A DNA stretch of 64,000 nucleotides from Candidatus Doudnabacteria bacterium (GCA_039931165.1 JBDTSL010000003.1:10349-74348); one strand, 5' to 3'. Positions 6,722 to 64,000 are shown, counted from the first letter of the stretch. Notes: a model not told the origin generated them from the letters alone. Numbers and translations: made by a program.

Positions 6722-6722
6722 A

Positions 6723-7826: not shown

Positions 7827-7827
7827 T

Positions 7828-9267: not shown

Positions 9268-9277
9268 TTAGAACTTT

Positions 9278-43466: not shown

Positions 43467-45110
43467 GTGCTTATGTTAATGAGAGAAAAGATAGCCCAAC
43501 AAGTGCTTGCCGCAGTCGGGAGTTTAGGCATAAAACCAACTGATGAGCAGAAAGCAAAAATCACAGTCACATATCCGGATTTCAAGCTTGGAGATTATTC
43601 GTCCAACGCCGCTTTGATTTTGTCCAGAGAAGCCAAGCTGAAGCCCTTGGATTTAGCCAATAAAATAGTCGGGAAATTGGATAAGGGCATGTTCGAAAAA
43701 GCTGACGCAGTGGCACCCGGCTTTATTAATTTTAAACTTATACTACCCGAACTACAATCTACAACCTATAACCTACAACCTAAAACCGAGGGCAAGATAC
43801 TGCTCGAATATTTTCAGCCGAACATCGCCAAGCCGCTTCATATCGGCCACCTGGAAACCGCCATAATCGGCGACACGATAAAAAGACAGCTTCTGTATAT
43901 GGGCAAAACAGTTGAATCCGACACCCACATGGGTGATTGGGGCACGCAGTTTGGTTATTTGATCTTGGCGTATAAAAAATTCGGGGAAGTGAATGATAAA
44001 TTATACGCTCAGCTCAATGCCGATGATTCGCAAAAAGAAGCGGCTAAGCATGAGTTTGTCAAACTCGAACAAGGTGATGTTGAAAATCGGAAGATTTGGC
44101 AGCAACTGGTTGAAGCCAGCATGAAAGAATTCCTCAAGATCAACGATCTGATGGATATCTTGCGGTTTGAGCATCATTGGCCTGAAAGTTTTTATGAAGA
44201 CAAGATGCCGGTTGTTTTGGAGGACCTTAAGCAAAAGAAATTATTGGTGGAATCGCAAGGCGCGCAGATTGTGGATCTTGAACAAGAAAAACTAGGGGTC
44301 GCGATTATCGTTAAGTCTGACGGCGGCACAACTTATCTGCTTCGGGATCTGGCAACATTTTTGTTTGTTAAAAAAGAGGGATTTACGAAACATTTGTATG
44401 TCGTTGATAACCGGCAGAGCTTGCACTATAAACAACTTTTTTCGATTTTGAAATCTATGGGCAAGTTCGAAGAGAATGAAGGGATACATATTGATTATGG
44501 ATTTATCAGCTTTAAGGGTCAGGCTCTGTCTACGCGAAAGGGCAACATGGTTTTGGCCCAGGATGTGATCGCCCAGGCAGAAGAAAAAGTGTCGAAGATA
44601 ATCGCGGAAAAAAATCCGGATCTGAAAAACAAACAAGAAGTGATCAAGGCCGTGACTAAAGGAGCCTTGAAATATTTTATTCTCAAGCATAACCGCCACA
44701 GCGACATTGAATTTGACTGGAACGAGGTCCTGGATTTTGAAGGAGACAGCGGTCCGTACCTCCAGTATGCCTACGCGAGAATGGCCAGTATTTTGCGCAA
44801 GGCTGGGAATCTGGAATCTGGAATCTGGAATTTAGAATCAATCACTCCCACTGAAAGGCAAATACTTTTCCAGTCATCAATTTTGTCAGAGATTGTTTCC
44901 GACGCCACCAAAGATTATCTGCCGAATATCCTGGCCAATTATTTGTACGGTTTTGCAAAACTTCTGAATAAGTTTTACCACGAAAGTCCGGTGACCCAGG
45001 AAAAGGACGAAAAAGTCCGAAATTTCCGGTTGGCCTTGGTTTCAAACGCCAAAGCCACGCTGGGAAAAGGCTTGGATCTTTTGGGAATTAAAGCTTTGGA
45101 AGAAATGTAA
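43467..45110 (+). CDS. argS: Arginine--tRNA ligase
   Basis: 'KPLHIGHLETAIIGD' HIGH motif and a DALR-type C-terminus. Contains an in-frame heptamer-repeat segment 'TTYNLQP' (43751-43787). Confidence 0.9.
   Translation: MLMLMREKIAQQVLAAVGSLGIKPTDEQKAKITVTYPDFKLGDYSSNAALILSREAKLKPLDLANKIVGKLDKGMFEKADAVAPGFINFKLILPELQSTTYNLQPKTEGKILLEYFQPNIAKPLHIGHLETAIIGDTIKRQLLYMGKTVESDTHMGDWGTQFGYLILAYKKFGEVNDKLYAQLNADDSQKEAAKHEFVKLEQGDVENRKIWQQLVEASMKEFLKINDLMDILRFEHHWPESFYEDKMPVVLEDLKQKKLLVESQGAQIVDLEQEKLGVAIIVKSDGGTTYLLRDLATFLFVKKEGFTKHLYVVDNRQSLHYKQLFSILKSMGKFEENEGIHIDYGFISFKGQALSTRKGNMVLAQDVIAQAEEKVSKIIAEKNPDLKNKQEVIKAVTKGALKYFILKHNRHSDIEFDWNEVLDFEGDSGPYLQYAYARMASILRKAGNLESGIWNLESITPTERQILFQSSILSEIVSDATKDYLPNILANYLYGFAKLLNKFYHESPVTQEKDEKVRNFRLALVSNAKATLGKGLDLLGIKALEEM
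43751..43787. repeat. (ACAACCT)n heptamer repeat, family B, coding copy inside argS
   Basis: ACTACAATCTACAACCTATAACCTACAACCTAAAACC is the reverse complement of the intergenic copies at 52696-52777 and 63152-63196. Confidence 0.7.
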
Positions 45111-48100: not shown

Positions 48101-48570
48101 AAAAGAAAATATTGGAGCAGATGCAGCAGGTAAGAGATCTGGTAGAGCAGGGACATGCGCTTCGCAAAGCTTCCAATATCCGCTTGAGGCAGCCATTGGA
48201 GTCATTTACTTATGATAAACAGCTATTGGCAAAGGATTTCGAAGAGATTTTGGCGGATGAATTGAATGTAAAATCGGTTAAATTCGGAAGCATTCTAGAA
48301 TTTGATCTCAAAATTACGCCTAAACTGAAAAATGAAGGCTTGGCCCGGGAGCTTGAACGGACAGTGCAGGAAATGCGGAAAAAGTCGGGCTTTAAGGTTG
48401 GCGAAAAGGCCAATTTATCGTATGATACAGAGGACAAGGAATTAAAAGCCGCTTTTGAGCTGTTTGACACAAAAAAGACATATATAGGGAAGATATCTCA
48501 AGGAAAAGGCGGGGAAGATGCGGAAATTGACGGAAAAAAAGTGTTTCTGTCTTTGCGAGGAGGCCAGTAG
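45130..48570 (+). CDS. ileS: Isoleucine--tRNA ligase (type 2, HYGH variant of HIGH)
   Basis: 'PPFATGLPHYGH' and 'KMSKSKNN'. 1146 aa. Carries an in-frame family-A repeat insertion (45976-46035). The last 6 codons and the stop lie within another family-A copy (48551-48605). Confidence 0.9.
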   Translation: MDKKLFKPIDAKPDFPKLEEEVLKFWEENQIFEKSLEQTQEGKPYTFYDGPPFATGLPHYGHILASVVKDLFPRYQTMKGRFVRRRWGWDTHGLPIEELVERKLGISGKKDIERIGIKKFNETCRSMVLEYVAEWRKMVRRVARWVDFDNSYKTMDRDYMESVWWAFKKTYDKGLIYEGRRVLLYCPRCETPISNFEVAMDNSYKEVTEEAVTVKFKVKGQENTYLLAWTTTPWTLPGNVALAVGEDIEYVKVEKGGEFYIVAKERVNSVFASEAKQSQNKKEIASSPPKIVLENKAAPRKDVEAEFKGSELVGLEYEPLFDVPSVESDKSFKVYAADFVNTEDGTGIVHTAVVYGEDDYNLGMKVGLPVVPLLDEKGIFNDKSPELVRGKYFKDSEKFIKKDLESRGLLFARKMHQHSYPHCWRCGTTLFYNAIPAWFINIQKIKKGLLKTNEKEINWFPDHLKHGRYQKSVEAAPDWNISRNRYWGNPIPVWKCEAGHNTVVGSIKDLGLSKNTFYFMRHGRAENNLLGLVDSWPDIKHYPLVPEGIEQAETSAKKIKELGGLDLIFSSDITRTKQTAEVVGEIFNVKVNFDERIREANSGDYNGRTYEDVNRDFPFESRWAKAQNGGETNIEIQKRMLDFVKEINAKYRGKKILIVGHGDPLFILQKYFGSERSYPKYGQVYEMEVSIVDLHRPYIDDVVLKCEKCGQDARRTPEIFDSWVEAGSMPFSEYHYPFDQKETFESRFPGQFVVEYIAQTRAWFYVMHVISYILFGKAPFENVVTTGTIQAEDGSKMSKSKNNFPDPWIVIEKYGVDALRFYLMNSPVMLAENLDFSERELAVVYRKNILILWNVYNYFVTYANEAGWEPKPPGYKPVLDNVLDKWIVAKTQELILEVTLELDNYNTVKATRAIEAYINELSTWYLRRSRGRKDSHFFGTLRHALTVLAKVSAPVMPYMSELVYSNLNKNPETISVHLAKWPEKKELDQEQKKILEQMQQVRDLVEQGHALRKASNIRLRQPLESFTYDKQLLAKDFEEILADELNVKSVKFGSILEFDLKITPKLKNEGLARELERTVQEMRKKSGFKVGEKANLSYDTEDKELKAAFELFDTKKTYIGKISQGKGGEDAEIDGKKVFLSLRGGQ
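45976..46035 (+). repeat. Family-A repeat inserted in frame in ileS (encodes EIASSPPKIVLENKAAPRKD)
   Basis: GAGATTGCTTCGTCGCCGCCCAAGATAGTCCTTGAGAATAAAGCGGCTCCTCGCAAAGAC. Only this frame of the element is open. Confidence 0.75.
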
Positions 48571-51095: not shown

Positions 51096-51200
51096 AGAGT
51101 ATAAAGGGGAAAGTATAAAGTATAAAGGCCGAGCTCTAATGCTTGGCCTTTAAAATTTCCTATATACTTTATACTTGTCCCTTTATATTTTTTATGGCTT
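51096..51200. terminator. Extended palindromic bidirectional terminator
   Basis: Central hairpin AAAGGCC-gagctctaatgctt-GGCCTTT. It is flanked by inverted GTATAAAG-type repeats: GTATAAAGGGGAAAGTATAAAGTATAAAGG ... CCTATATACTTTATACTTGTCCCTTTATAT. Confidence 0.55.
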
Positions 51201-52340
51201 CACATATGCCAGGGGGTTTTGATGCACACCATTTTTTATGACCTCAAAGTGCAGATGAATGCCGGTGGTGCCGCGGACGCGGCCGGTGTGGCCTTGTTTC
51301 GCGATCTGCTGGCCCTTCTTCACATAATCACCGGCAGAGACGTATAGCGTCGAGGCATGCCCGTAGCGGGTTTTAAAGCCGCTGCCATGATTGATGACAA
51401 TTGTGTTGCCGTAGCCGTTGGACTGAAAACCGGAAATTTCCACGAATCCGTCGGCAGCCGCATAAATCGGCTCTTCTTTGCTGTCCGATATATCAATTCC
51501 CGAATGGCGGCTCGAGAAACCCTGGGTAATCTTTCGCACTGTCGTCGGCCATACAAAGCTTATTGGACCTGCCGTAAAATCCGCCGGTGTCTGAGCTGTC
51601 TTCAAGGCAATTTTATTGCTTTCGTCTTTGACGAAAGTTGAAGGCGGTTTGGGCTTGGTTGGAAGAGTGACATTGTGCAAGGGGATAACGACAGTGGCTC
51701 CCACATCCAAATCGTCAAATGATTCAATGTTGTTTGCATCCAAAAAATCTTCTTCCAAAACTTTATATTTGCTCAAGATCGAATCCAAGGTATCGCCGGC
51801 TTTGAGGGTATAGGTAATTCCTGTGGTCGGCAAGATGGTCAATTCCTGCCCCGGCTTGATAATGCTGGTAGTGTCCAATTTATTTTCCATCATTATCGTC
51901 TGCGGCGAGATGCCGAAGCTTGAGGCAACGCTGATCAGCGTGTCGCCGGATTGGACATTGTATTTGGTCAGCCCCAGGCGGGATGTGTTCTGAGTATCCG
52001 CCGGGTTGGTTTTCATGATCACGTCAGCCTGAATGGTGGTCGGATCGGAGATCGGAGTTTTGGCCGGAGCCGCGGAGGCCAGAACAATGCCGAATACCGA
52101 CTGGGCCGAAACTTTGGAAACCTGCCGGTCGCTTTTTGCCAAAATGGTGGTGGTGTCACTGGAAGACAGAAGCCGGGGATTCATGTTTGGGTTGGCCTTA
52201 AGAAACGAAAAAATCACGCTTTGGTCCGATGATGAAATCAGGTTGGCGTGATTGCTTAGTGAAAAATTTACGAAAACCGCAAGGCAGCCGATCGTTAAAA
52301 CGACCAACTCCAGGCTGAAACGGGCAACATAGTCCGGCAC
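51192..52340 (-). CDS. LysM-domain M23-family peptidoglycan endopeptidase
   Basis: Two LysM repeats ('YNVQSGDTLISVASSFGISPQTI' and 'YTLKAGDTLDSILSKY') and the M23 motifs 'HSGIDI...' and 'GHTGRVRGTTGIHLHFEV'. Confidence 0.85.
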   Translation of the reverse strand: MPDYVARFSLELVVLTIGCLAVFVNFSLSNHANLISSSDQSVIFSFLKANPNMNPRLLSSSDTTTILAKSDRQVSKVSAQSVFGIVLASAAPAKTPISDPTTIQADVIMKTNPADTQNTSRLGLTKYNVQSGDTLISVASSFGISPQTIMMENKLDTTSIIKPGQELTILPTTGITYTLKAGDTLDSILSKYKVLEEDFLDANNIESFDDLDVGATVVIPLHNVTLPTKPKPPSTFVKDESNKIALKTAQTPADFTAGPISFVWPTTVRKITQGFSSRHSGIDISDSKEEPIYAAADGFVEISGFQSNGYGNTIVINHGSGFKTRYGHASTLYVSAGDYVKKGQQIAKQGHTGRVRGTTGIHLHFEVIKNGVHQNPLAYVKP

Positions 52341-52695: not shown

Positions 52696-52777
52696 ATAGG
52701 TTATAGGTGGTAGGTGATAGGTTATAGTAAAAAAAGCCATATTTTTCTACAACCTACAACCTAAAACCTATAACCTG
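52696..52777. repeat. Family-B heptamer repeats arranged as an inverted pair upstream of pcrA
   Basis: ATAGGTTATAGGTGGTAGGTGATAGGTTATAG, then a 20-nt spacer, then CTACAACCTACAACCTAAAACCTATAACCT. This can fold into a long imperfect hairpin. Confidence 0.65.
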
Positions 52778-54803: not shown

Positions 54804-55751
54804 ATGACCAATGAAATTGAATTAAAAAATTATTTTCGCGCTCACGGACTTAAACCCAAAGATTATTTGGGACAGAATTTTTTGATTGACGAAGATGTGC
54901 TGAGAGAGATGATCGGGATCGCGGAATTAAAGCCGACCGATGTCGTGCTGGAGGTCGGTCCGGGTTTGGGTGTTTTGACAAAAGAACTCGCGGCCCGGTG
55001 CAGGGAAGTACTAGCGGTGGAAAAAGACAGCAAACTTTTCAAATTGCTTAAAGAAGAACTTATCGCATCTGCGAGCGGCCGATTAGTTGAGGATAAATCT
55101 CAGCGGCCGCGTGGCAGTCTAATCCTGGGTCAGATTGCTTCGTCGCCGCCAGAGATCACTCTTAGAGAAAAAAGCGGCTCCTCGCAAATTCGATTGTTCA
55201 ATGATGATATTTTAAAATTCCATGTTGCTGAAAATATCAAAGGCGAATACAAAGTCGTGGCCAATATCCCATATTATCTGACCTCAAAATTAATTCAGAA
55301 TTTTTTGGAAAATGTTCATCAACCGAAGTTACTCGTGATCATGATCCAGAAAGAAGTAGGGGAGCGGATAGTGGCTGGCCCGGGGAAACTTTCAATGCTC
55401 GGCATCTCCGTGCAGATTTACGCCGATGCGGAAATAGCGGCCCAGGTTCCCAGGCAAAGCTTCTGGCCGGTCCCGGAAGTTGATTCGGTGATCCTTAAAA
55501 TATTACCGCGAAATAAATATTCACAGATCACCGACCATAGATTATTCTTCCGCATCCTGAAAATGGCCTTTGCCGGAAAAAGAAAACAGATCGCCAATAG
55601 TTTAAGCAATGGATTGAATAAACCGAAGGAAGATATTACGAAGATGTTGCGCCTTGCAAGCATCGATCCTACCACAAGACCGCAAGATGTGAAAATAGAA
55701 CAGTGGATAGAGTTGTATAAGGTAGCTCAGATGGTTGTTGACGTAAAATAG
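54804..55751 (+). CDS. rsmA: 16S rRNA (adenine1518/1519-N6)-dimethyltransferase, with a ~45-aa repeat-derived insertion
   Basis: 'GQNFLIDEDVL...VLEVGPGLGVLTKEL' and 'VANIPYYLTS'. Confidence 0.9.
   Translation: MTNEIELKNYFRAHGLKPKDYLGQNFLIDEDVLREMIGIAELKPTDVVLEVGPGLGVLTKELAARCREVLAVEKDSKLFKLLKEELIASASGRLVEDKSQRPRGSLILGQIASSPPEITLREKSGSSQIRLFNDDILKFHVAENIKGEYKVVANIPYYLTSKLIQNFLENVHQPKLLVIMIQKEVGERIVAGPGKLSMLGISVQIYADAEIAAQVPRQSFWPVPEVDSVILKILPRNKYSQITDHRLFFRILKMAFAGKRKQIANSLSNGLNKPKEDITKMLRLASIDPTTRPQDVKIEQWIELYKVAQMVVDVK
55066..55192 (+). repeat. Family-A repeat inserted in frame in rsmA/ksgA (encodes ...GQIASSPPEITLREKSGSSQI...)
   Basis: TCTGCGAGCGGCC...GCGGCCGCGTGGCAGTCTAATCCTGGGTCAGATTGCTTCGTCGCCGCCAGAGATCACTCTTAGAGAAAAAAGCGGCTCCTCGCAAATTCG. 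Confidence 0.7.
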
Positions 55752-55966
55752 CTGTTTTTCTTAAACCAACAGCACATAATCAGGAATCTTTCTTTTGGGA
55801 CTAGACAAGTCTCTTTTTTTGTGCTATAATATATATATAGTCAGTTGAGTATTCGAAACAAAAATACAAAAAATAAACGCTATTAAGGCCATATTTAATC
55901 AAATTTGGCGGCAGGAAGGCAACTTATTTTTTAGGTTGCTTATGGTAAATTTGAGAGGATTGCTAA

Positions 55967-56341
55967 ATGCAAAGAAATAGAAACAAACTGGTGGTTAGTC
56001 TTATTGCTTTAGCTATTTTTTTTATCGGCGTTTTATCTATATCCGCGCGTGAGGCAAAAGCCCAGGCAACCGGCCTGCCATTCGGCGGCCGGCTATTATT
56101 TTTTTCTCCGGTGATTATAACTACCTTTGTTAATTGTCCGGCTTTAGCTCATGTTATTAATTTTGGCCCAGGCCCGAAATATCTGAACCTCCTTCTTCCA
56201 CCATACCAGCCAAGGTTATTTTATAATTACTATACTTCCGGGGTAGCTGTCCTGGGCTCCTACTATCCGACACCGATCCCGTTTAATTGTCCTTTTCAGC
56301 CGATTTTTCCGTCGTTTTATTTTGGAACCAGCGCCAGATAA
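55967..56341 (+). CDS. Small secreted Pro/Tyr-rich protein with two 'NCP' motifs
   Basis: Signal peptide, 'FVNCPALAHV' and 'FNCPFQP'. An RBS GAGAGG lies upstream. Confidence 0.4.
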   Translation: MQRNRNKLVVSLIALAIFFIGVLSISAREAKAQATGLPFGGRLLFFSPVIITTFVNCPALAHVINFGPGPKYLNLLLPPYQPRLFYNYYTSGVAVLGSYYPTPIPFNCPFQPIFPSFYFGTSAR

Positions 56342-56352
56342 TAAATAAAAAA

Positions 56353-57285
56353 ATGTTCAGAAATAAAAAGCAAAATAAAAACCAATACGGGACGTTCAAT
56401 ACCAAGCCGGAAAACAAGAAAAATGTCCGCGTTTTGATGACGGCCTTTGCGGCCGTGATTTTTGTTTTGGGAGTCGGGATTGTTTTGTATAAAAATCATA
56501 ATCAACCAAAAATCCAAAGCGCGGTTGTTGAAACCGCTGCCGAACCGATACCCGGCTGGTGGTACAAGCATTTTTTTAACTCAAGTGTTTGCGATCAGGA
56601 TAGCTGCAAACCCGAATCCGATCCTGATAATGACAAGCTTTCAAATTTGCAGGAATATTATTATGGGACCGAACCTCTAAACCCGCGCACAGTCGGCGAT
56701 AAGCTTTCGGACGGAGAATTAGTATCTCAGGGATTTGATCCTTCTAAAACCGGTCATCAAACTTTTGACGAAACTCTGAACCCGGATAATATTATGGGAG
56801 AGAGCCTGGTTTTTAACACAGACGTAAAACAGATCATCGGAAGCTTGACTGATATCACAAAAGTTAAATTGCCGGAGATTAAAACCCAGGATGTCATTGT
56901 CTCGGGGGATAATTCAAAGCAAGCCGTCGCTGACTATTTAAACAGAGTTAATCTCGCGGCTTTTAAATATTTTAACTTTAATGTCGAGCAGTCCCTTAAA
57001 ACAGCCCAAATAACCGGGAGCAGCGATGAGATTGATAATATAAAATTCAGAGCGGCCCGGTTGCTCATTGATCTAAAAACCATCTCTGTTCCCAAAGACG
57101 CCGTGCAGCTGCACAAATACTACATAGGTTTAATGAGCCTTGTCCCGAGCGTTATTTCTTTGCCGCAAAGCGACCCGGACAATACGGCAAATACTTCTTT
57201 AGCTGACGATATTTGGTACGATAACGCGCAGGCTTATCTGGTGCTGATCCAAAAAATTGCCATAGAAAAACAAAAACTCAAATAG
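56353..57285 (+). CDS. Hypothetical single-pass membrane protein
   Basis: 'MFRNKKQ...' then the TM 'VLMTAFAAVIFVLGVGIVL'. Starts just after the upstream stop. Confidence 0.4.
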   Translation: MFRNKKQNKNQYGTFNTKPENKKNVRVLMTAFAAVIFVLGVGIVLYKNHNQPKIQSAVVETAAEPIPGWWYKHFFNSSVCDQDSCKPESDPDNDKLSNLQEYYYGTEPLNPRTVGDKLSDGELVSQGFDPSKTGHQTFDETLNPDNIMGESLVFNTDVKQIIGSLTDITKVKLPEIKTQDVIVSGDNSKQAVADYLNRVNLAAFKYFNFNVEQSLKTAQITGSSDEIDNIKFRAARLLIDLKTISVPKDAVQLHKYYIGLMSLVPSVISLPQSDPDNTANTSLADDIWYDNAQAYLVLIQKIAIEKQKLK

Positions 57286-57286
57286 C

Positions 57287-58903
57287 ATGAAAAGTTTCCG
57301 CAAAAAATCTTTTGCTTCGGCCGCGCTTGGCGTATTCCTGCTAAGTCAGTTGTTTTTTGTCGCGTCGGTGACGCTCATTCCGAATCCACAGCCTGCCCAG
57401 GCCCAAGCCGCAGCCGCGGCCTTGGCCACTGTCCCTACCGCGGACTTGCCTACGGTTTATGAAAGGATAGCCATAGGGATTGCCAGAGCGTTCCTGCAAA
57501 AATTCACCGAGAAATTCCTGACCAAATTTACGAATCTGCTGGTGAATAAATATAAGATCAGAAATTTTCTTTATTACGATCAGGTTTTAACCGACTATTA
57601 CCTGAATAATTATATATACGACAAAATTCAAGACCCCGATCTGCGGAATATTTATACTTTATTGGAGCGGGCATATGTGAGCGGGGCTTCAACAGGAACT
57701 ACGAATGCCCCTGATCCGAACAAGGCCTTGATCCCGCAGCTAAACAAAGCAGTCAGCGATTATTATAAAAAAATTGGCGGGATTGACCCGAATAAAGTTT
57801 ATTATCCCGCCCGCAATGTCAGTGATAGGGAATACTTTGCCACCGCTCAGGCATATTTTGCCAATCCACCCAGCTTTACCGAACAAAACTTGCGCGGGCA
57901 ATTCGGCGCGTTCCAAACTTCGGCGACCACAGCGGCGCAACTGGAAATTATCGTAGGCAATAGCCTGAAAGCCGGCCGCATCATCGGCGGCACCTGCGAT
58001 TTTTCTGGCCCTATTCCAGCCGGCCAGGTCGACCCGAAAACTTCGCCGGCGGCCTGTCAGTCATTGGGAGGAAGTTGGACGCCTTCACTTTTGGATAAAG
58101 CCCGTTCTTTCATAGACAACCCTTCTGGTTTCGTCCAAAATACCTTAGATGCTTTTATCAGCCAGCACATCGGCAATCTTTATAATCCGAGCACCGATTT
58201 TTGGACCCAAGTCGGCGGGGCATTCGGCTCCTTCATTTGGAATCAGCTCGGACTGAATAAGTCCTCCCAGGATATATTAATCGAAGACCCGAGGGGTTAT
58301 GTGGGCGAGGACTTTGGCGCAGCAACTCAAACAGACAATACATTGTCGCTGGAGAAAGGCCAGATTGATATAGACACAGATGGCATCTCGGACGGAGTTG
58401 ACTACGACGGTGACGGCAGAATTGATATTTGTTCTTACGGCGGCAATCCTCCGGATGCTTGCGTGGGATCCAGAACGCTCATTACTGCCGGATCGGGGGG
58501 CGGAGGGTTGACTTGCACCGATGTTCCTACTGCCATGGCATGTCAAGCGCCAAACCACACTGATTTAGTGGCTCGGGTAAAAACTTACCTTGTTTCGCGA
58601 GGCCAGCAATTTAATACCTTGTGCGACGCTTTCGAAATTGTGAAGCGCGTGGCTTGGGCTCTGCGAGGGGAGGGCGCGGGATTAATGACCACCTTCCACT
58701 CAACCCAATGTAATGGGCTTTCGGCTGATATTGTCGCTTATACTGACGGTTCGGGCGTTGATGTGCTTGGTAGCGCCGGACCACCGCCATCAGATGGAAG
58801 CGCGTATGATATTCCGGTATGGCTGCCCGGTCCTGATAACCCGGAAGCCGGAGTTGATTATGCCCCGCCCGCCGATCCGGGCGATCCGCCGGGAAGTTAT
58901 TAG
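57287..58903 (+). CDS. Large secreted protein with Asp/Gly-rich (calcium-binding-like) segment
   Basis: Signal peptide and 'DTDGISDGVDYDGDGRIDICSYGG'. Contains multiple Cys. Confidence 0.45.
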   Translation: MKSFRKKSFASAALGVFLLSQLFFVASVTLIPNPQPAQAQAAAAALATVPTADLPTVYERIAIGIARAFLQKFTEKFLTKFTNLLVNKYKIRNFLYYDQVLTDYYLNNYIYDKIQDPDLRNIYTLLERAYVSGASTGTTNAPDPNKALIPQLNKAVSDYYKKIGGIDPNKVYYPARNVSDREYFATAQAYFANPPSFTEQNLRGQFGAFQTSATTAAQLEIIVGNSLKAGRIIGGTCDFSGPIPAGQVDPKTSPAACQSLGGSWTPSLLDKARSFIDNPSGFVQNTLDAFISQHIGNLYNPSTDFWTQVGGAFGSFIWNQLGLNKSSQDILIEDPRGYVGEDFGAATQTDNTLSLEKGQIDIDTDGISDGVDYDGDGRIDICSYGGNPPDACVGSRTLITAGSGGGGLTCTDVPTAMACQAPNHTDLVARVKTYLVSRGQQFNTLCDAFEIVKRVAWALRGEGAGLMTTFHSTQCNGLSADIVAYTDGSGVDVLGSAGPPPSDGSAYDIPVWLPGPDNPEAGVDYAPPADPGDPPGSY

Positions 58904-58913
58904 GAATATTTAA

Positions 58914-61490
58914 ATGGGAAACCTAAAGCACAAAGCAATAGTTATAGCGATGCTCGCGATCACGGCAAATATTTTATTTGCCAATTTTGCTTTGGGGCAG
59001 GCACCGGCTACAAGTACTCCCGCTACCACATCAACGATAACAAAACAAATGCTGCTTGATGCTTTGCAGAGCCAATCAGCCTGTGCTTCCTTGAGCACAG
59101 CTATATCCAATTTGACTCCGGCAAGAGGAATTGGAAGTTATATTACTTTTTGGGATCCTTCTGCAGCGCAGAAATGCAGTTTTCAACGTATATATCGTTT
59201 TCGAGCTGATGGCAGTCCAGATACACGCTCCGATGCTTCTACTGTTGCTGCATGGGAAGCTTATATGAAGCAAGATGAATCTCTTATAAACAGTTTTGTT
59301 ACAACGACTCAAAAAAATGATGCAACAGTAGCAAAACTTAATGCTCAAGAAACCCAAGCCAATCCTTTAAGCATCTTTATTGCTTGGGTGCTTATCCCTA
59401 TCTTTGGCGTCGTGAACGCGTTTTTAGCCGGTATTGCAGTTATGGCTGGGGCAATTTTTAACCAAGCAATTATTCCAGTTATCAGTATAACTACGATGCC
59501 GACGATTGTTAATACCGGTTGGATGATAGTGCGTGATGTCTGTAATATGTTTTTTATTCTGGCTTTGATCGTGATTGCTTTAGGAATGATTTTAAGATTA
59601 AAAGAATACCAAGAATACGGGACTCTTTTGCGGAACCTGATTATAGCAGCGATTTTGGTAAACTTTAGCCAAGTCATAGCGGTAACTATAATGAATGCGG
59701 TTAATTTTTTGGCTTCGGTATTCTGGGGTGATGGTACAGGAATAGTTCATGTTTTTGCGACTTTTATGCGAATTGCCAACCCTGTTGGTGATTTTAGCCT
59801 TACTATACAGGGAGGAGCTCCTGCGGAGCTGGCTTTAGGCTTGGGTAGACTTACTTTTATGTTAGTGGCTACTGTGGTCTTCATTGCTTTGGCTGGCATG
59901 TTTGTAATTCGTCTTGTAGGATTATATGTCTTGATTATTTTTTCGCCTGTTGCTTTTGTCGCAAATATATTGCCTGTTTCGAAGAAATTTGCAGAACAGT
60001 GGTGGAGCAGTTTTTTTAAATATTTGATCTGGGCGCCAGTGGCATTATTTATGCTTAGATTAGTTATACTTGTGGTAGATAATGATTCTCAATTTAATTT
60101 TATAGGCGGCGGGGGCCATGATTCTGTTTTCATTTATTTTATTCTGACAGCTTTTATTGGCGCCGCGCTTTTGTTGGCCCAGAAGGCGGGGATGGTGGGG
60201 AGCGACATGGTGGTTAATGCGGCCAAAGCAACCGGGAAATTTGGTTTGCATGCCGCTGACCGTAAATTGGCCTCATGGTCAGATTCTTCAAGTAGAGTTA
60301 AGAAGGGATTGTCCTATTTAAGCTTTGGGGCTGCGAAAAAAGGTTATGAACTGCGTCAGCACCACAAAGAAGAAGAATCCTATACTGTTGCCGCGGGTAA
60401 AAGAGCAAATACTTTTGCTGCTGTTATGAGTGGAGGTAGAGAAAAAGGCGACTTCGAAAGATTAGCCCGATACCAGAGAGTAGCGCAGGAAAAAAAGCGG
60501 TTTGAAAATATCACAGATAAAGACGAATTAACGGCAATCGCAACTCATGCTTATGAAAATAAGGAATACGATAAGTTTATGGGCGCTTGGTCCAAACTTG
60601 CGGCTCAGGGCGATATGAATGAAGTTGCTTTAGCAATGGTGGACAAGGAAGCCAGTGCCGAGAACGTGCAAAAAATTGTTCAAAAAATGGTAGATGAGAC
60701 CGGAAATAAAGAATGGTCCCGATTAGCGGCGGATACTACTAAAATAGCGGAAGGCCAAGGAGATTATATTTTTGCCGGAGCATTTGAGCGGGACGGAAAG
60801 ACAGGAGATTACGGTGCGAGAGGTGAAGACGAAAGAAGAAATTATGTGAATACCCAGAGAGCAAAGAACAGCGACCAATCGAATGTCAGAAATTTGGGCA
60901 GGCGAGGATTAGGGTTTATAGAAGCAAATGGAATCAATCCTAATACTGCCAAATCAGTGTGGTATGTTAAAAAGATCGAGGCCGACGGGACAGATTATGC
61001 GAGCCGATTGAAGGACATCAGCGGATGGAGAAATAACGGCAATAAAAATGCCAAAGCTAATGTGGCTATAAGTGGTTCTAAAGAATGGCTTGAAGCAAAT
61101 CCGGAAGCTTGGGCAGCTGCAGCTAGCGAATATGCGGAGCTTGACAAGGATAAAAGTACCGCAGGCCGAGAGCGTCTAGTTGAATTTAGAAAATCAGTTG
61201 CTGCTCCAAATATAGAAGAAAATTATAATACCCCTAGCACGGTAAGCCCTGCACAGGCAAAAATATTCTTTGAAAGTAAAGAAATAGGACGGCAAATTAA
61301 GGCCAAGATTGAAAGTGGCGATCAGAAAGATAAAGAAGCTACTCGGAAAGACTATGGTGTTTTGTATGACTATGCTTATGGGTCTTCTCCAACTCGCACA
61401 CCATCAACTACACCGTTTTCGACCCCGACCCCAACGATTTCTCCAAGTGGAGGCATAAGACCCCCAACTAGCTCTCCTCCTATAATGTAA
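58914..61490 (+). CDS. TrbL/VirB6-like polytopic membrane protein with a long hydrophilic C-terminal extension
   Basis: Signal peptide and an N-terminal soluble region, then a block of ~7 TM helices (about residues 150-400), then a ~450-aa charged tail ending in a Pro/Ser/Thr-rich segment. This layout is that of VirB6/TrbL. Confidence 0.45.
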   Translation: MGNLKHKAIVIAMLAITANILFANFALGQAPATSTPATTSTITKQMLLDALQSQSACASLSTAISNLTPARGIGSYITFWDPSAAQKCSFQRIYRFRADGSPDTRSDASTVAAWEAYMKQDESLINSFVTTTQKNDATVAKLNAQETQANPLSIFIAWVLIPIFGVVNAFLAGIAVMAGAIFNQAIIPVISITTMPTIVNTGWMIVRDVCNMFFILALIVIALGMILRLKEYQEYGTLLRNLIIAAILVNFSQVIAVTIMNAVNFLASVFWGDGTGIVHVFATFMRIANPVGDFSLTIQGGAPAELALGLGRLTFMLVATVVFIALAGMFVIRLVGLYVLIIFSPVAFVANILPVSKKFAEQWWSSFFKYLIWAPVALFMLRLVILVVDNDSQFNFIGGGGHDSVFIYFILTAFIGAALLLAQKAGMVGSDMVVNAAKATGKFGLHAADRKLASWSDSSSRVKKGLSYLSFGAAKKGYELRQHHKEEESYTVAAGKRANTFAAVMSGGREKGDFERLARYQRVAQEKKRFENITDKDELTAIATHAYENKEYDKFMGAWSKLAAQGDMNEVALAMVDKEASAENVQKIVQKMVDETGNKEWSRLAADTTKIAEGQGDYIFAGAFERDGKTGDYGARGEDERRNYVNTQRAKNSDQSNVRNLGRRGLGFIEANGINPNTAKSVWYVKKIEADGTDYASRLKDISGWRNNGNKNAKANVAISGSKEWLEANPEAWAAAASEYAELDKDKSTAGRERLVEFRKSVAAPNIEENYNTPSTVSPAQAKIFFESKEIGRQIKAKIESGDQKDKEATRKDYGVLYDYAYGSSPTRTPSTTPFSTPTPTISPSGGIRPPTSSPPIM

Positions 61491-61506
61491 CAATAAGTAT
61501 AGAGCT

Positions 61507-63150
61507 ATGAATAATAAATTTACACTAAATAAAACTGAGTTCAATGGCGATTTGGCCGATCCTAAAATCTTTGCTGAGATCGTTTTTCTTACTGATTTAG
61601 TTAAAGACAGTGAGTCAAAAGGGGATACATATAAAGTATTGCAAGAATTGGATCACTTGCTGAAAAAAAATACAGCCCAGCTCGGAGAATTGAAGCAAGG
61701 CTATGATAATTTGCTACTAGACCTGCGATTGACTTGTTTCCAACTGCTATCGGATGACGAAAAAGAGGTTATTTTGAAAAGCAAAATGTCTGTAGCTTAT
61801 AAAAATAACATTGATTTGACACGTTCCATCGCTTTAATGTTTATCCCGTATTTTACTCAGGATGATTTTGTAAAGTTAAACAGAATTACTCGATATTTGG
61901 AGGAAAATGACGAACTGATCGGGACGAATAATATTACAACATCGGATGGAAAGACAGTTGGTCCCTTAGTATCAAACTGGATTAAAGATTATAAATCAAA
62001 AGCTATAGAAGATAAAGGGACACTTAACATAGTTTCTTATTTTACCCAAAGCCCGAACTCCAAGGGATTAACCAAAGGACAACTCGATTTCCTAAAATAT
62101 ATATTGGATTTTTATGACTGGTTGAGATTCAAGGCTAGTAATACGTCGCTTATTCCTGAAGAAGAACCCGTAGCGCCGAGACCTTCTGCACCGCTGAGAA
62201 ATGTCACGCCAAACAGGACTACTATACCAGCCGTTTCTTCATCACCAGTTAGACCTCCGCAGCAGGCACAAGCAAAACCCGCCGCGCCTAGAGCTCTGCC
62301 AACCGAGTTTGAGAAGAAGCTGGCTCAAGTTTCGGCTCCTCCTCAAAGGCTCAACCCTGCTCCAAAGCCAGTTTTTCAGGAAGTTAAACCCGCCGCTCCA
62401 AAGCCACCGGCTACCGAATTTGAGAAAAAACTGGCCCAAGTTTCGGCTCCGTCTTCCCACGGCCAGGATTTGGAGATTATCCGCAAGCAAATGGAAAGTT
62501 CCAACCCGCCGGTTTCCGGCGTGCCTCGGTCGCTTACAAGGGGAGAAGGGCGAATTGAAAGCGCCAATTTGACGCCGGAAGAGATCAAGCGGGAAATCAA
62601 CACGCCGGAATTGCCACAATATAAAGAACCGGTGCGGCCTGTTGTTAAGCCAGTCTTGCCGCCAATTGTTGTGGCGCCGAAACCCGTGATATATAAACCT
62701 GTGGCGCCCAAGGCGGTTTCCGCGCCCGCACAAGTGGCGCCAATCCATAAAGAGATTGCTTCGTCGCCTCCAAAATTAACCCAAAGAACCGAGGCTCCTC
62801 GCAAAGACGGGTTAACTTCTTTAGATAAAATCAGCATTGTCGATGATTTAAAAAAGGTTGACCTGGAACTTTTCAGGCAAGCTCCGGTACAAAAACAGAT
62901 AGCGGATATAAAATACCAGGTATCAAGATTAGCTGCGGCCAATAAGCTTTTGCCTTACTATACGGTCAGCGCTTTTGAACAAAGCCCGCTATTCCAGGCC
63001 TACCTGCGGGTTGGTTTGGCGATAATCGAAGACAGCGCCACGGACCGGGCGGTGGCATTCAGAAACGCGGCCAACAAGGTAGGCAGCAATCTGACTTTGC
63101 AGGAGTTTGAAGCAATCGCGGATCTGCGGAAAGAAATAGAGCGGTTATAG
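61507..63150 (+). CDS. Hypothetical protein with Pro-rich tandem repeats (LPTEFEKKLAQVSAP, two copies)
   Basis: 547 aa. DNA direct repeat at 62298-62348 and 62410-62460. Also carries the family-A in-frame insert. Confidence 0.5.
   Translation: MNNKFTLNKTEFNGDLADPKIFAEIVFLTDLVKDSESKGDTYKVLQELDHLLKKNTAQLGELKQGYDNLLLDLRLTCFQLLSDDEKEVILKSKMSVAYKNNIDLTRSIALMFIPYFTQDDFVKLNRITRYLEENDELIGTNNITTSDGKTVGPLVSNWIKDYKSKAIEDKGTLNIVSYFTQSPNSKGLTKGQLDFLKYILDFYDWLRFKASNTSLIPEEEPVAPRPSAPLRNVTPNRTTIPAVSSSPVRPPQQAQAKPAAPRALPTEFEKKLAQVSAPPQRLNPAPKPVFQEVKPAAPKPPATEFEKKLAQVSAPSSHGQDLEIIRKQMESSNPPVSGVPRSLTRGEGRIESANLTPEEIKREINTPELPQYKEPVRPVVKPVLPPIVVAPKPVIYKPVAPKAVSAPAQVAPIHKEIASSPPKLTQRTEAPRKDGLTSLDKISIVDDLKKVDLELFRQAPVQKQIADIKYQVSRLAAANKLLPYYTVSAFEQSPLFQAYLRVGLAIIEDSATDRAVAFRNAANKVGSNLTLQEFEAIADLRKEIERL
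62752..62808 (+). repeat. Family-A repeat inserted in frame in the hypothetical gene 61507-63150 (encodes EIASSPPKLTQRTEAPRKD)
   Basis: GAGATTGCTTCGTCGCCTCCAAAATTAACCCAAAGAACCGAGGCTCCTCGCAAAGAC. Confidence 0.7.
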
Positions 63151-63151
63151 A

Positions 63152-63196
63152 GAGGTTGTAGGTTGTAGGTTGTAGGTGGTAGGTTATAGGTTGTAG
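63152..63196. repeat. Family-B heptamer repeat (AGGTTGT)n, intergenic
   Basis: GAGGTTGTAGGTTGTAGGTTGTAGGTGGTAGGTTATAGGTTGTAG. Confidence 0.7.
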
Positions 63197-63282: not shown

Positions 63283-63567
63283 ATGGTTTTTTGTGTTTAT
63301 ATTATGGCTAGCAAAAGGAGAGGGACTTTATATATTGGTATGACCTCAGATTTGCCCAAAAGAGTTTACGAGCATAAAGATGATTTAGTTGAAGGATTTA
63401 CGAAAAAGTACGGTTGTCATACCTTGGTTTATTTTGAACCTATTGAAGATTTTGATTCGGCACTCAAAAGAGAAAAACAAACGAAAGCCTGGAATCGAAA
63501 CTGGAAAATAGAATTGATCGAGAAAACCAATCCGGCGTGGGAAGACCTGTCAGGTAAATTAATGTAG
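63283..63567 (+). CDS. GIY-YIG nuclease-domain protein
   Basis: 'VYIMASKRRGTLYIGMTSDLPKRVYEH'. Confidence 0.85.
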   Translation: MVFCVYIMASKRRGTLYIGMTSDLPKRVYEHKDDLVEGFTKKYGCHTLVYFEPIEDFDSALKREKQTKAWNRNWKIELIEKTNPAWEDLSGKLM

Positions 63568-63634: not shown

Positions 63635-64000
63635 ATGTACAAAGTAGTTATTGATACCAATCTTCTGATTGACGGTGCTTCTGATTTTTATAATTTCGGG
63701 AATCGGATCATTGATCTGGTGATTGGCGGACAGATTGAGGCTTATGCCAATGCCGGCACCCTGAGGGAAAATAAGTTTTTGGCCCATAAGAAAATTGAAG
63801 ACGAAGGTTATCTCAAGAAACTGGAATATTTTTTCGATGTCGTCCAAAAAGTTGAAGCAGGCGACAGACTGGATGTCGTGGAGGACAGCGAAGACAACAA
63901 AATTTTGGAATCAGCCGTTGCCGCCGGCGCGGATTATCTGATCACGTCGGACCATCATCTGCTGAAATTGGAAAAATTTCGAGGGATCCGCATGGTCCGT
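63635..64000 (+). CDS. PIN-domain (VapC-like, TIGR00305-type) protein, 3' end lies outside the window
   Basis: 'MYKVVIDTNLLIDG' and 'DNKILESAVAAGADYLITSDHHLL'. Open to the window end. Confidence 0.65.
   Translation, partial: MYKVVIDTNLLIDGASDFYNFGNRIIDLVIGGQIEAYANAGTLRENKFLAHKKIEDEGYLKKLEYFFDVVQKVEAGDRLDVVEDSEDNKILESAVAAGADYLITSDHHLLKLEKFRGIRMVR

What the first reader, a model, noticed from the sequence alone, without database searches (positions are those of the whole stretch)
55967..63150. Cluster of secreted/membrane proteins with a TrbL/VirB6-like polytopic protein
Five consecutive same-strand genes encode:
- a small secreted Pro/Tyr-rich protein;
- a single-pass membrane protein;
- a 538-aa secreted protein with a D/G-rich calcium-binding-like stretch;
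- an 858-aa protein whose layout matches VirB6/TrbL (soluble N-domain, block of ~7 TM helices, long charged tail);
- a 547-aa Pro-rich repeat protein.

Type-IV-secretion-like membrane assemblies are a recurring but poorly characterised feature of small-genome episymbiotic bacteria. No VirB4 or VirD4 ATPase lies within the window, so the assignment is tentative.
Basis: inference. Interest (0 to 1): 0.55.

Follow-up and report, generated by a model that had tools for sequence, protein, structure and literature searches.

The report
Front half of a CPR type-IV secretion locus
These five genes are the membrane and surface half of the chromosomal type IV secretion system that ultra-small Patescibacteria (here a Doudnabacteria) are thought to need for living on host bacteria; the system is already published, but three of its conserved genes have no known function.

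Summary
Five tightly spaced + strand genes (55967-63150) match NCBI's gene calls `ABI643_02005`-`02025` of a Candidatus Doudnabacteria MAG, all annotated "hypothetical".

The 858-aa protein belongs to the VirB6/TrbL family:
- Pfam TrbL is hit by 39 of 80 family members (best E = 5.7e-11), although the window protein itself is below threshold.
- A TM-only profile finds only TrwI/VirB6 among all PDB sequences.
- The AlphaFold model's top four PDB hits are TrwI.

In 62 of 65 related loci with enough downstream DNA, the gene is followed on the same strand by PrgI/VirB3, a TrsD-like gene and a VirB4 ATPase. The window ends inside a PIN gene that directly precedes that trio in close relatives, so the "missing" ATPase is almost certainly just beyond base 64000.

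There is no relaxase, coupling protein, integrase or tRNA nearby. Flanking housekeeping genes (ksgA, uvrD, recO) are conserved, so this is not a conjugative element.

This is the Patescibacteria T4SS already described (Wang 2023; Quiñonero-Coronel 2025). The residual novelty is three collinear, uncharacterised accessory families: a TSP3-repeat bitopic protein, a secreted protein with no detected fold relative, and a cytoplasmic Pro-rich protein fused to VirB6 in one lineage.

The parts
55802..55830 (+). Promoter-like site TAGACA-17-TATAAT with an extended -10 TG, in the 215-bp AT-rich gap after ksgA and about 137 bp upstream of W1
   Evidence: This is the best-scoring site in the region, with 11 of 12 matches, and the sequence was read. 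It is a consensus match only. The total number of sites in the region is not above the shuffled expectation.
55967..56341 (+). W1: a 124-aa small secreted protein rich in Pro, Tyr and Phe (ABI643_02005). It is a lineage-restricted accessory gene.
   Evidence: The ORF is and the signal-like TM segment at residues 8-26 is. It has no Pfam or NCBIfam family. It is found in only 8 of 81 loci, always upstream on the same strand. It does not match the T4SS_pilin family HMM.
56353..57285 (+). W2: a 310-aa bitopic membrane protein (ABI643_02010). It has a short cytoplasmic N-terminus, one TM segment, a TSP3-type Ca-binding repeat region, and a C-terminal domain that looks helical from the sequence (not modelled).
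   Evidence: The TM segment at residues 27-45 is. TSP3_bac is hit in 14 of 43 family members, best E = 4.7e-16. There is a weak Amuc_1099 pilus-like match, E = 3e-4. It is present in 47 of 81 loci and in 37 of 53 complete loci, always upstream and collinear.
57287..58903 (+). W3: a 538-aa secreted protein (ABI643_02015). It has an all-helical N-domain (about residues 54-321), a conserved double DxDxDG loop flanked by Cys (359-392), and a compact alpha/beta C-domain (about 410-538).
   Evidence: The AlphaFold2 model has pLDDT 75.5 overall and 88-97 in the C-domain. No Pfam core family was found, and homologs carry variable adhesin-type C-terminal domains such as SdrD_B, InlB B-repeat, PKD and FG-GAP. 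No PDB or viral fold match reached E <= 1e-3. It is present in 34 of 81 loci and 27 of 53 complete loci.
58914..61490 (+). W4: an 858-aa 'extended' VirB6/TrbL-family polytopic membrane protein (ABI643_02020). It has a signal peptide, an extracytoplasmic N-domain with a conserved Cys pair (C57, C88), a TM block at residues 151-430, and a 428-aa charged tail ending in a Pro/Ser/Thr-rich segment.
   Evidence: Pfam TrbL scores 16.6-19.1 bits for this protein, below the gathering threshold of 25.9, over profile positions 28-208 of 215. TrbL is hit in 16 of 33 and 39 of 80 relatives, best E = 5.7e-11. The only PDB sequence hit of the TM profile is TrwI, E = 0.017. The AlphaFold2 model has pLDDT 80.7, and its Foldseek top four hits are TrwI/VirB6 with probability 0.98-1.0.
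61507..63150 (+). W5: a 547-aa protein with no signal peptide or TM segment (ABI643_02025). It has a conserved N-domain (about 1-215, with an NW motif), a Pro-rich linker with a duplicated TEFEKKLAQVSAP unit, and a C-domain ending in a conserved amphipathic ...EFEAIADLRKEIERL.
   Evidence: No TM segment was found. There are no Pfam or PDB relatives. It is present in 59 of 81 loci and 43 of 53 complete loci, always directly downstream of VirB6. It is fused to VirB6 in L056. An exhaustive search found 458 representative clusters.
63153..63196 (+). Heptamer array (AGGTTGT) x 6.3 immediately after the W5 stop codon. It is a possible operon-end or regulatory element.
   Evidence: The same kind of array sits immediately after the W5 homolog in L004 (with the W5 end coordinate). 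Its function is unknown.
63283..63567 (+). GIY-YIG nuclease gene. It is an interposed small selfish-type gene and not a T4SS part.
   Evidence: Pfam GIY-YIG, E = 4e-15. The equivalent position in relatives holds 23S-IVP/Avd, PD-(D/E)XK_3 or PIN genes.
63635..64000 (+). The 5' part (122 codons) of a PIN_3 gene that runs off the window. It is the synteny anchor showing that the locus continues.
   Evidence: Pfam PIN_3, E = 1.5e-15. It is 69% identical to L001 14648-15091. In L001 and in the P0002 contig that gene directly precedes PrgI, the TraC-like gene and VirB4.
51192..52340 (-). LysM-LysM-Peptidase_M23 peptidoglycan hydrolase. It is a conserved divergent neighbour and only a candidate functional stand-in for VirB1 (speculative).
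   Evidence: The Pfam hits are. A LysM plus CHAP or M23 hydrolase recurs on the opposite strand about 8 kb upstream in 30 of 81 loci. PMC12102498 notes VirB1 homologs with M23 and LysM domains in Patescibacteria. No direct link has been shown.

Best explanation
The five genes form the promoter-proximal, envelope-facing half of the chromosomal Patescibacteria-type type IV secretion system. That system derives from the monoderm MPF-FATA conjugation machinery.

Proposed roles:
- W4 is the VirB6/TrbL-family subunit that lines the cytoplasmic-membrane channel. Its long charged tail most likely faces the cytoplasm.
- W5, a signal-less Pro-rich protein, most likely works with that tail on the cytoplasmic side.
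- W2 (bitopic, with a Ca-binding TSP3 repeat), W3 (secreted, with a Ca-binding loop and a variable C-terminal domain) and W1 (small, secreted) are lineage-specific extracytoplasmic parts. They most likely build or decorate the cell-wall-spanning, host-contacting portion.

The energising module is PrgI/VirB3, a TrsD-like protein, the VirB4 ATPase and a wall hydrolase. By synteny it lies immediately beyond base 64000.

The machine is not a conjugation apparatus. It most likely mediates contact-dependent transfer of macromolecules between the epibiont and its host bacterium. The direction of transfer and the substrate are unknown.

Shown: gene structure, family membership of W4, and the conserved gene order with VirB3 and VirB4 in relatives. 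Inferred: presence of VirB4 in this genome, membrane topology, the roles of W1, W2, W3 and W5, and the physiological function.
For: - W4 as VirB6. Pfam TrbL is the only recurrent family: 16 of 33 full-length relatives and 39 of 80 TM domains, best E = 5.7e-11. The TM-only profile hits only TrwI/VirB6 among 177,635 PDB sequences. Foldseek ranks four TrwI chains first, with probability 0.98-1.0.
- Synteny. PrgI-like, TraC/TrsD-like and VirB4 genes follow on the same strand in 62 of 81 loci. That is 62 of the 65 loci with at least 10 kb after the W4 start. In L001, VirB4 passes the Pfam thresholds for P-loop_TraG, AAA_10, DUF87 and CagE_TrbE_VirB, and PrgI scores 32.6 bits against a threshold of 27.
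- The two closest long contigs share the window's whole context: RecO, DUF11, LysM-M23, UvrD, KsgA, W2, W3, W4, W5 and PIN_3. They continue with PrgI, the TraC-like gene and VirB4. The window ends inside that PIN_3 gene.
- The order (W1)-W2-W3-W4-W5 is strictly collinear in 53 complete loci, with W5 in 81%, W2 in 70% and W3 in 51%.
- One ORF in L056 fuses VirB6 and W5.
- No relaxase, T4CP, integrase or tRNA is present in the window, and none recurs in the neighbourhoods.
- Literature. The Patescibacteria T4SS has VirB4, TrsD, PrgI, VirB6 and pilins, usually lacks a relaxase, and lies near ksgA and recG (PMC12102498). The T4SS locus is essential for epibiotic growth of S. epibionticum, with a TrbL/VirB6-like gene upstream of the PrgI, hypothetical and VirB4 genes (PMC10633639 text and supplement).
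Against: - The window protein's own TrbL score is below Pfam's gathering threshold. The PDB profile hit (E = 0.017) and the Foldseek hits (E about 1e-2, TM-score 0.34-0.40) are individually weak.
- VirB4 was not seen in this genome, because the contig beyond 64000 could not be fetched.
- The TraC/TrsD-like label rests on a precomputed annotation. My own hmmscan found no family for that gene.
- W1, W2, W3 and W5 have no demonstrated link to secretion other than conserved position. W3 and W2 are missing from 30-50% of loci.
- The fusion is a single case and could be an assembly or sequencing error.
- No VirB8-like gene was found in these loci, and no VirB2-type pilin in the Doudnabacteria-type ones.
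- Essentiality data exist only for a distant Saccharibacterium.
Confidence: 0.82

Rival explanations
1. Only W4, and perhaps W5, belongs to the T4SS. W1, W2 and W3 are ordinary cell-surface or adhesion proteins that share a promoter or a conserved chromosomal position with it, and have no role in the secretion machine.
For: W2, W3 and W1 are absent from 30%, 49% and 89% of complete loci. W3 homologs carry variable adhesin-type domains. None matches a known T4SS component. The whole region, including ksgA and uvrD, is syntenic, so co-location alone is weak evidence.
Against: When present, they always sit directly upstream of VirB6 on the same strand in a fixed order, with gaps of 1-16 bp in the window. 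They are found across several Patescibacteria classes. Surface adhesins are themselves normal accessory parts of monoderm T4SSs (stated in PMC12102498).
Confidence: 0.2
2. The locus is a DNA-uptake T4SS of the ComB type. It would import host DNA as a nucleotide source rather than export proteins.
For: Like Helicobacter ComB, it lacks a relaxase and a coupling protein nearby. Patescibacteria cannot make nucleotides, and the authors of PMC12102498 favour import of DNA or other macromolecules. recG and recO flank the locus.
Against: In S. epibionticum, loss of comEC abolishes competence but not growth, while the T4SS is essential. Import through ComEC therefore cannot be the essential role (PMC10633639, as summarised in PMC12857230). 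No DNA-binding component is detectable in W1-W5.
Confidence: 0.15
3. The cluster is part of an integrated conjugative or mobilisable element that transfers DNA between cells.
For: The VirB4 clade derives from monoderm conjugation systems, and NCBI names relatives 'VirB4-like conjugal transfer ATPase, CD1110 family' (PMC12102498). Small nuclease genes (GIY-YIG, PIN) lie next to it.
Against: The same housekeeping neighbours (KsgA in 46 loci, UvrD in 35) flank the locus across many genera. No relaxase, T4CP, integrase, tRNA or flanking direct repeats typical of an ICE were found. GC content matches the rest of the window. PMC12102498 finds relaxases near virB4 in only 15 genomes.
Confidence: 0.04
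4. The 858-aa protein is an unrelated polytopic transporter or permease, and the TrbL resemblance is a hydrophobic-composition artefact.
For: The window protein's own TrbL hit is sub-threshold. Structural E-values are about 1e-2, and AdiC and GPCR chains appear lower in the hit list. A source tool labelled the S. epibionticum homolog 'ABC transporter permease' at low confidence.
Against: No other Pfam family recurs in the family. There is a single MMPL hit in 80 members against 39 TrbL hits. The TrwI hits cover the whole target at probability of about 1.0, whereas the transporter hits have probability below 0.4. The gene is adjacent to VirB3 and VirB4 in 62 of 65 loci.
Confidence: 0.03

Closest known systems
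Patescibacteria (CPR) chromosomal T4SS, e.g. Southlakia epibionticum SEML1_0006-0019 (Wang et al. 2023, PMC10633639; survey by Quiñonero-Coronel et al. 2025, PMC12102498)
   Same: The backbone and gene order match: a large TrbL/VirB6-like protein lies upstream on the same strand as PrgI/VirB3, a TrsD-like gene and VirB4. The location is chromosomal, near ksgA and recG. No relaxase or T4CP is adjacent. The host phylum is the same.
   Different: The Doudnabacteria-type locus shows no VirB2-type pilin array within 10 kb, and no NTF2/VirB8-like gene of the kind at SEML1_0012. It carries the W2, W3 and W5 families and an M15-like and propeller pair after VirB4. The papers I read did not describe W2, W3 or W5. 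The window contains only the front half of the locus.
VirB6/TrbL family (Pfam PF04610), e.g. TrwI of plasmid R388 (PDB 7O3V, 8RT9) and A. tumefaciens VirB6
   Same: It is a polytopic helical membrane protein. The profile-to-sequence alignment covers the conserved helices (TrwI 111-228), and TrwI gives the top structural matches. It is genetically associated with VirB3 and VirB4.
   Different: It is 858 aa against roughly 300-350 aa. It adds a cleavable signal peptide, a Cys-containing N-domain of about 120 aa and a 428-aa charged tail. Identity is very low (12-15%). There are no VirB5, VirB7, VirB9 or VirB10 partners, because the host has a monoderm envelope.
'Extended' VirB6 proteins (category defined in the review PMC12857230; examples in Rickettsiales/Anaplasma, PMC7648143; F-plasmid TraG and pCW3 TcpH recalled from my own knowledge)
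   Same: The layout is five or more hydrophobic helices plus large hydrophilic domains, matching the definition quoted from PMC12857230.
   Different: No sequence similarity of the tail to any of these was detected, since there is no Pfam or PDB match for residues 431-858. The tail is conserved only among close Doudnabacteria relatives, in 12 ORFs.
Monoderm conjugative MPF-FATA T4SSs (pCF10 Prg, pGO1 Trs, pIP501 Tra, C. difficile CTn CD1110 type)
   Same: It shares PrgI-type VirB3, a TrsD-like protein, a CD1110-type VirB4 and a VirB6-like channel protein, and it lacks outer-membrane core components (PMC12102498).
   Different: No relaxase, coupling protein, PrgB-type adhesin or recognisable VirB8 was found. 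It is not on a mobile element. The closest studied Patescibacteria system is essential for growth rather than for gene transfer (PMC10633639).

Membership tests
VirB6/TrbL (PF04610) | Significant match of the protein to the TrbL/VirB6 profile | tested here: inconclusive
   The window protein scores 16.6 bits (E = 0.0072) full length and 19.1 bits (E = 0.0012) for the TM domain, against a gathering threshold of 25.9 bits. The match covers profile positions 28-208 of 215. At family level, 39 of 80 TM domains hit TrbL at E <= 0.01, best 5.7e-11.
VirB6/TrbL (PF04610) | Polytopic membrane protein with at least 5 hydrophobic helices | tested here: met
   There are six hydrophobic stretches between residues 151 and 430 in the family-mean profile, long enough for 6-8 helices. 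The AlphaFold2 helices in this block have pLDDT 85-97.
VirB6/TrbL (PF04610) | Fold similarity to a solved VirB6 | tested here: inconclusive
VirB6/TrbL (PF04610) | Encoded next to virB4 and virB3 | tested here: met
   This is met in relatives: 62 of 65 loci with sufficient downstream sequence, same strand, fixed order. For the window itself it is inferred from synteny up to the last base. It was not directly observed.
Patescibacteria-type T4SS locus (PMC12102498) | VirB4 of the Patescibacteria/MPF-FATA-related clade with adjacent TrsD-like and PrgI/VirB3 genes | not testable with these tools
   These genes are not within the window, and the source contig beyond 64000 was not retrievable. They are present in the syntenic relatives L001 and the P0002 contig. 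No VirB4 phylogeny was built.
Patescibacteria-type T4SS locus (PMC12102498) | Chromosomal location among housekeeping genes (ksgA, recG), with no adjacent relaxase or T4CP | tested here: met
   KsgA, UvrD and RecO lie upstream in the window. KsgA is present in 46 related loci and UvrD in 35. RecG lies downstream in L001. No relaxase or T4CP family is found among the window ORFs or the recurrent neighbour clusters.
Patescibacteria-type T4SS locus (PMC12102498) | VirB2-like pilin genes near virB4 (frequent, not universal) | tested here: not met
   T4SS_pilin (PF18895) genes occur in 14 of 81 loci. None is in the window or in the Doudnabacteria-type loci within 10 kb. W1 does not match the pilin HMM.
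Conjugative MPF-FATA T4SS / ICE | Relaxase, coupling protein (VirD4/TcpA) and mobile-element boundaries (integrase, tRNA, direct repeats) | tested here: not met
   None was found in the window or among the recurrent neighbours. GC content is uniform.
VirB8-like (NTF2 fold, bitopic) as an identity for W2 | N-terminal TM segment plus an NTF2-like extracytoplasmic domain | tested here: inconclusive
   The bitopic topology is met. Sequence profiles find only TSP3 repeats and no VirB8, PrgL or NTF2 family.
VirB5-like or adhesin tip protein as an identity for W3 | Fold similarity to VirB5/TraC or to known adhesin domains | tested here: not met
   The Foldseek PDB search returned no VirB5 and nothing at E <= 1e-3, and the viral library gave nothing either. 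Only the variable C-terminal domains of some homologs match adhesin-type Pfam families.

The most novel reading that the evidence does not exclude
W2, W3 and W5 are unrecognised structural subunits of the Patescibacteria T4SS that replace the 'missing' canonical parts. W5 would be a cytoplasmic adaptor docking on the VirB6 tail, standing in for the absent coupling protein, as hinted by the VirB6-W5 fusion and its conserved C-terminal helix. W2 and W3 would be a Ca2+-stabilised wall-spanning and host-contacting module, standing in for VirB8 or for VirB5 and pilus adhesins in lineages such as Doudnabacteria that lack a pilin array.
Probability: 0.3. Interest if true: 0.6.

Novelty: new member of a known kind. 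Interest (0 to 1): 0.35.

Why it matters
The Patescibacteria T4SS is the only T4SS known to be essential for its bearer's growth, and its substrate and direction of transport are unknown.

It also shows that the VirB6 gene travels with three conserved, completely unannotated families. These are a TSP3-repeat bitopic protein, a secreted protein with no detected fold relative, and a cytoplasmic Pro-rich protein once fused to VirB6. They are concrete candidates for the missing VirB8, adhesin and coupling functions, and could be tested in the genetically tractable Saccharibacteria.

The finding does not reveal a new kind of system.

Tried and rejected
- **Fetching the source contig beyond 64000.** An exact-protein look-up of W4/P0001 was not on record. 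The genome-contig scan did not contain the source genome, with the best hit at 39% identity. An exact 50-mer scan of metagenome contigs gave 0 hits. The Logan contig carrying W2 is only 3.3 kb.
- **Finding the source genome's VirB4 by homolog search with L001's VirB4.** The family is too abundant and too conserved (75-89% identity). No hit from the 102,960-bp contig was among the 120 listed.
- **Full-length W4 profile against the PDB.** The charged tail dominated the hits (designed helical repeats and similar), so the result was uninformative. Repeating the search with a TM-only profile worked.
- **W3.** The PDB profile search, Pfam, Foldseek against the PDB and Foldseek against viral structures gave no significant relative. 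The idea that its helical N-domain is VirB5-like is not supported.
- **W2 as VirB8.** No sequence support was found. The fold is untested.
- **W1 as a VirB2 pilin.** It has no Pfam hit and no match to the pilin HMM built from the loci.
- **Terminator after W5.** The terminator scan did not call the hairpin plus T-run that I saw by eye after W5.

Full report
**Observation.** All are on the + strand and are separated by 11, 1, 10 and 16 bp. A 215-bp AT-rich gap after ksgA holds the best promoter-like site of the region: TAGACA-17-TATAAT with a TG extension at 55802-55830. The exact protein sequences are NCBI entries MEO8065611.1-MEO8065615.1 (`ABI643_02005`-`02025`). All are annotated "hypothetical protein" and come from a Candidatus Doudnabacteria MAG contig of 102,960 bp. 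The rest of the window is ordinary chromosome: ArgRS, IleRS, IF-3, a tmRNA, RecO, UvrD/PcrA and KsgA. GC content is even across it. No VirB4, TrsD, PrgI or pilin relative is present in any of the six frames.

**The 858-aa protein.** On its own it gives only a sub-threshold Pfam TrbL/VirB6 match: 16.6 bits full length and 19.1 bits for the TM domain, against a gathering score of 25.9. The match does span profile positions 28-208 of 215. The signal holds across the family. TrbL is the only family that recurs, in 16 of 33 full-length homologs and in 39 of 80 TM domains drawn from diverse Patescibacteria, with a best E of 5.7e-11. A profile of the TM block alone (alignment A6, 80 sequences) matched a single sequence among 177,635 distinct PDB sequences. 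That sequence was TrwI, the VirB6 of plasmid R388 (E = 0.017). An AlphaFold2 model of residues 1-479 has mean pLDDT 80.7, with 85-97 across the TM block. Its first four Foldseek hits in the PDB are TrwI/VirB6 chains, with probability 0.98-1.0 and full target coverage, but E is only about 1e-2 and the TM-score is 0.34-0.40. Each line is weak on its own. Together with the genomic context they are convincing.

The layout of W4 is:
- a signal peptide;
- an N-domain of about 120 aa with a nearly invariant Cys pair, C57 and C88;
- six hydrophobic stretches between residues 151 and 430, enough for 6-8 helices;
- a 428-aa charged tail.

This matches the "extended VirB6" category described in PMC12857230. 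I infer that the tail is cytoplasmic, for two reasons. The sequence just after the last helix is rich in Lys and Arg. The signal-less W5 is fused after the tail in one genome.

**Context, which settles the missing-ATPase caveat as far as these tools allow.** The two closest homologs on long contigs (L001 from GCA_034680565.1 and the JGI contig of P0002) share the window's entire neighbourhood. It runs RecO, DUF11, LysM-M23 (opposite strand), UvrD, KsgA, W2 homolog, W3 homolog, VirB6-like, W5 homolog and PIN_3. They then continue with PrgI (VirB3-like), a "TraC-like" gene (PF26593, precomputed annotation), a VirB4 ATPase, two more membrane or secreted proteins, and RecG. In L001 the ATPase passes Pfam's thresholds for P-loop_TraG, AAA_10, DUF87 and CagE_TrbE_VirB. 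PrgI scores 32.6 bits against a threshold of 27. My own scan found no family for the TraC-like gene, so that label rests on the precomputed hit. The last 366 bases of the window (63635-64000) encode the first 122 residues of a PIN_3 protein that is 69% identical to L001's. Synteny therefore holds up to the final base, and the VirB3/TrsD/VirB4 module is expected within the next few hundred bases.

Across 81 loci fetched with the VirB6-like family, the PrgI-like, TraC-like and VirB4 trio follows on the same strand in 62. Sixteen of the 19 exceptions are contigs that end too soon. That leaves 62 of the 65 loci with at least 10 kb of DNA after the gene's start.

I could not obtain the source contig beyond the window, and I could not pick out its VirB4 among very many near-identical relatives.

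**The other four genes.**

W2 is a bitopic membrane protein whose family carries bacterial thrombospondin-type-3 calcium-binding repeats, in 14 of 43 members with a best E of 4.7e-16. There is a weak match to the Amuc_1099 pilus-like family over the same region.

W3 is secreted. Its model shows an all-helical N-domain, a conserved double DxDxDG loop bracketed by invariant cysteines, and a confidently folded C-terminal alpha/beta domain. Neither sequence profiles nor Foldseek found any relative in the PDB or among viral structures. Some homologs append adhesin-type domains such as SdrD_B, InlB B-repeat, PKD and FG-GAP, which suggests a surface-exposed role.

W5 has no signal peptide or TM segment. 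It has a conserved N-domain, a Pro-rich linker with a recent 70-nt duplication, and a C-terminal amphipathic motif that is identical in several genera. It has no known relatives. An exhaustive search found 458 representative clusters among 1.84 billion proteins. In L056 (Uhrbacteria) one 1509-aa ORF contains both the VirB6 TM domain and the W5 N-domain. This is a single Rosetta-stone hint of physical coupling.

W1 is a small secreted protein found in only 8 loci. It is not a VirB2-type pilin by the tests I ran.

In the 53 loci with complete context, W5 occurs in 81%, W2 in 70%, W3 in 51% and W1 in 11%. The order is always (W1)-W2-W3-VirB6-W5-PrgI-TrsD-VirB4.

**What it is not.** It is not a conjugative element:
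- Housekeeping neighbours are conserved across many genera (KsgA in 46 loci, UvrD in 35).
- No relaxase, coupling protein, integrase, tRNA or ICE-type boundary repeats were found.
- Composition is uniform.

It is not another transporter family either, since no alternative family recurs.

**Comparison with the literature.** The system is published. Wang et al. 2023 (PMC10633639) showed that the T4SS cluster SEML1_0006-0019 of the saccharibacterium Southlakia epibionticum is essential for epibiotic growth and lacks recognisable coupling and relaxase proteins. Their supplement lists a TrbL/VirB6-like protein (0013) upstream of PrgI (0010), a hypothetical gene (0009) and VirB4 (0008). Quiñonero-Coronel et al. 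2025 (PMC12102498) surveyed the phylum. They found a distinct VirB4 clade related to MPF-FATA, together with TrsD, PrgI/VirB3, VirB6 (480 homologs, 304 near virB4) and VirB2-like pilins. VirB8 was rarely detected, relaxases were very rare, and ksgA and recG were common neighbours. The 2025 review PMC12857230 summarises the same picture. The window's cluster is thus a new member of a known kind.

The following do not appear in the papers I read. I did not see their supplementary family tables, so they may be listed there:
- the collinear W2, W3 and W5 families;
- the VirB6-W5 fusion;
- the lack of a pilin array in the Doudnabacteria-type locus within 10 kb.

**Mechanism (inferred).** A VirB4 hexamer anchored by PrgI/VirB3 powers a channel lined by the VirB6-like W4. 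W5 acts at the cytoplasmic face with the W4 tail. W2 and W3, both with Ca-binding motifs, together with W1, form or decorate the wall-spanning and host-contacting part. A hydrolase opens the wall. Candidates are the M15-like protein after VirB4 in relatives or the conserved LysM-M23/CHAP neighbour. The function is most likely contact-dependent macromolecule exchange with the host bacterium rather than conjugation. Export and import cannot be distinguished here.

**Scores.** Novelty is low (new member of a known kind) and interest is moderate to low, at 0.35. The most novel reading not excluded is that W2, W3 and W5 are the missing structural and adaptor subunits (probability about 0.3).

Noticed in passing
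window 43757-43788 (-), 52698-52722 (+), 52752-52776 (-), 63153-63196 (+); L004 13986-14010; L053 3495-3519: Short tandem arrays of the heptamer AGGTNNT give 11 pattern matches in the window, against 0.01 expected by chance. One array directly follows the W5 stop codon, and the same happens after the W5 homolog in L004. An inverted pair sits in the gap upstream of uvrD. One array lies inside the ArgRS ORF. Their function is unknown; they could be a terminator, a protein-binding array or a dispersed repeat.
   Followed up: partly
window 63283-63567 and 63635-64000; L001 14234-15091; clusters: The gap between W5 and PrgI is a hot spot for small selfish or defence-type genes. It holds GIY-YIG plus PIN_3 here, 23S-rRNA-IVP/Avd plus PIN_3 in L001, and 23S_rRNA_IVP in 12 loci. 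PD-(D/E)XK_3 genes also recur in 12 loci, at varying positions within them.
   Followed up: partly
L056 946-5475: A single 1509-aa ORF in a Uhrbacteria MAG fuses the VirB6-like TM domain (residues 57-361) with the W5 N-domain (residues 1039-1248). It may be a true gene fusion or a lost stop codon in the assembly.
   Followed up: partly
window 55132-55166 and 62753-62787: A 35-nt direct repeat at 77% identity is shared by ksgA and W5, and both copies encode ...IASSPP.... The KsgA here (326 aa) carries an insertion of about 48 aa compared with L001's 278-aa KsgA in this region.
   Followed up: no
window 45130-48570: The 1146-aa class I tRNA synthetase (IleRS-like; Pfam tRNA-synt_1 plus Anticodon_1) has a histidine-phosphatase (His_Phos_1) domain at residues 517-694, between the two halves of the catalytic domain.
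   Followed up: no
window 5171-11058: Five consecutive + strand genes encode an aromatic amino-acid lyase, a ThiF-family protein, a 499-aa protein with no family, a nitroreductase-family protein and a SAM methyltransferase, followed by a 7TM histidine kinase. This may be a small biosynthetic or modification cluster, which would be unusual for a reduced CPR genome.
   Followed up: no
L001 18166-20120, and equivalents in L002, L004, L006, L047: After VirB4, Doudnabacteria-type loci encode a membrane protein with a weak Peptidase_M15_4 (D-Ala-D-Ala carboxypeptidase-like) signature and a TM-anchored protein with a weak beta-propeller match. The first is a candidate wall hydrolase of the system.
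   Followed up: partly
loci L015, L021, L022, L027, L037, L041, L044, L053, L061, L063, L069, L071, L072, L076: VirB2-type T4SS_pilin (PF18895) genes lie about 7 kb downstream of the VirB6-like gene in 14 loci from other Patescibacteria classes. They are absent within 10 kb in the Doudnabacteria-type loci.
   Followed up: partly
window 42549-42932 (-): A tmRNA gene with tag peptide ANSLVKTVKNAFAFSPAMAVA.
   Followed up: no
12 loci, e.g. L065 1015-9186: A giant protein of about 2700 aa with a carbohydrate-binding CBM_4_9 domain recurs on the same strand upstream of the VirB6-like gene in 12 loci. It could be a surface adhesin associated with the system.
   Followed up: no
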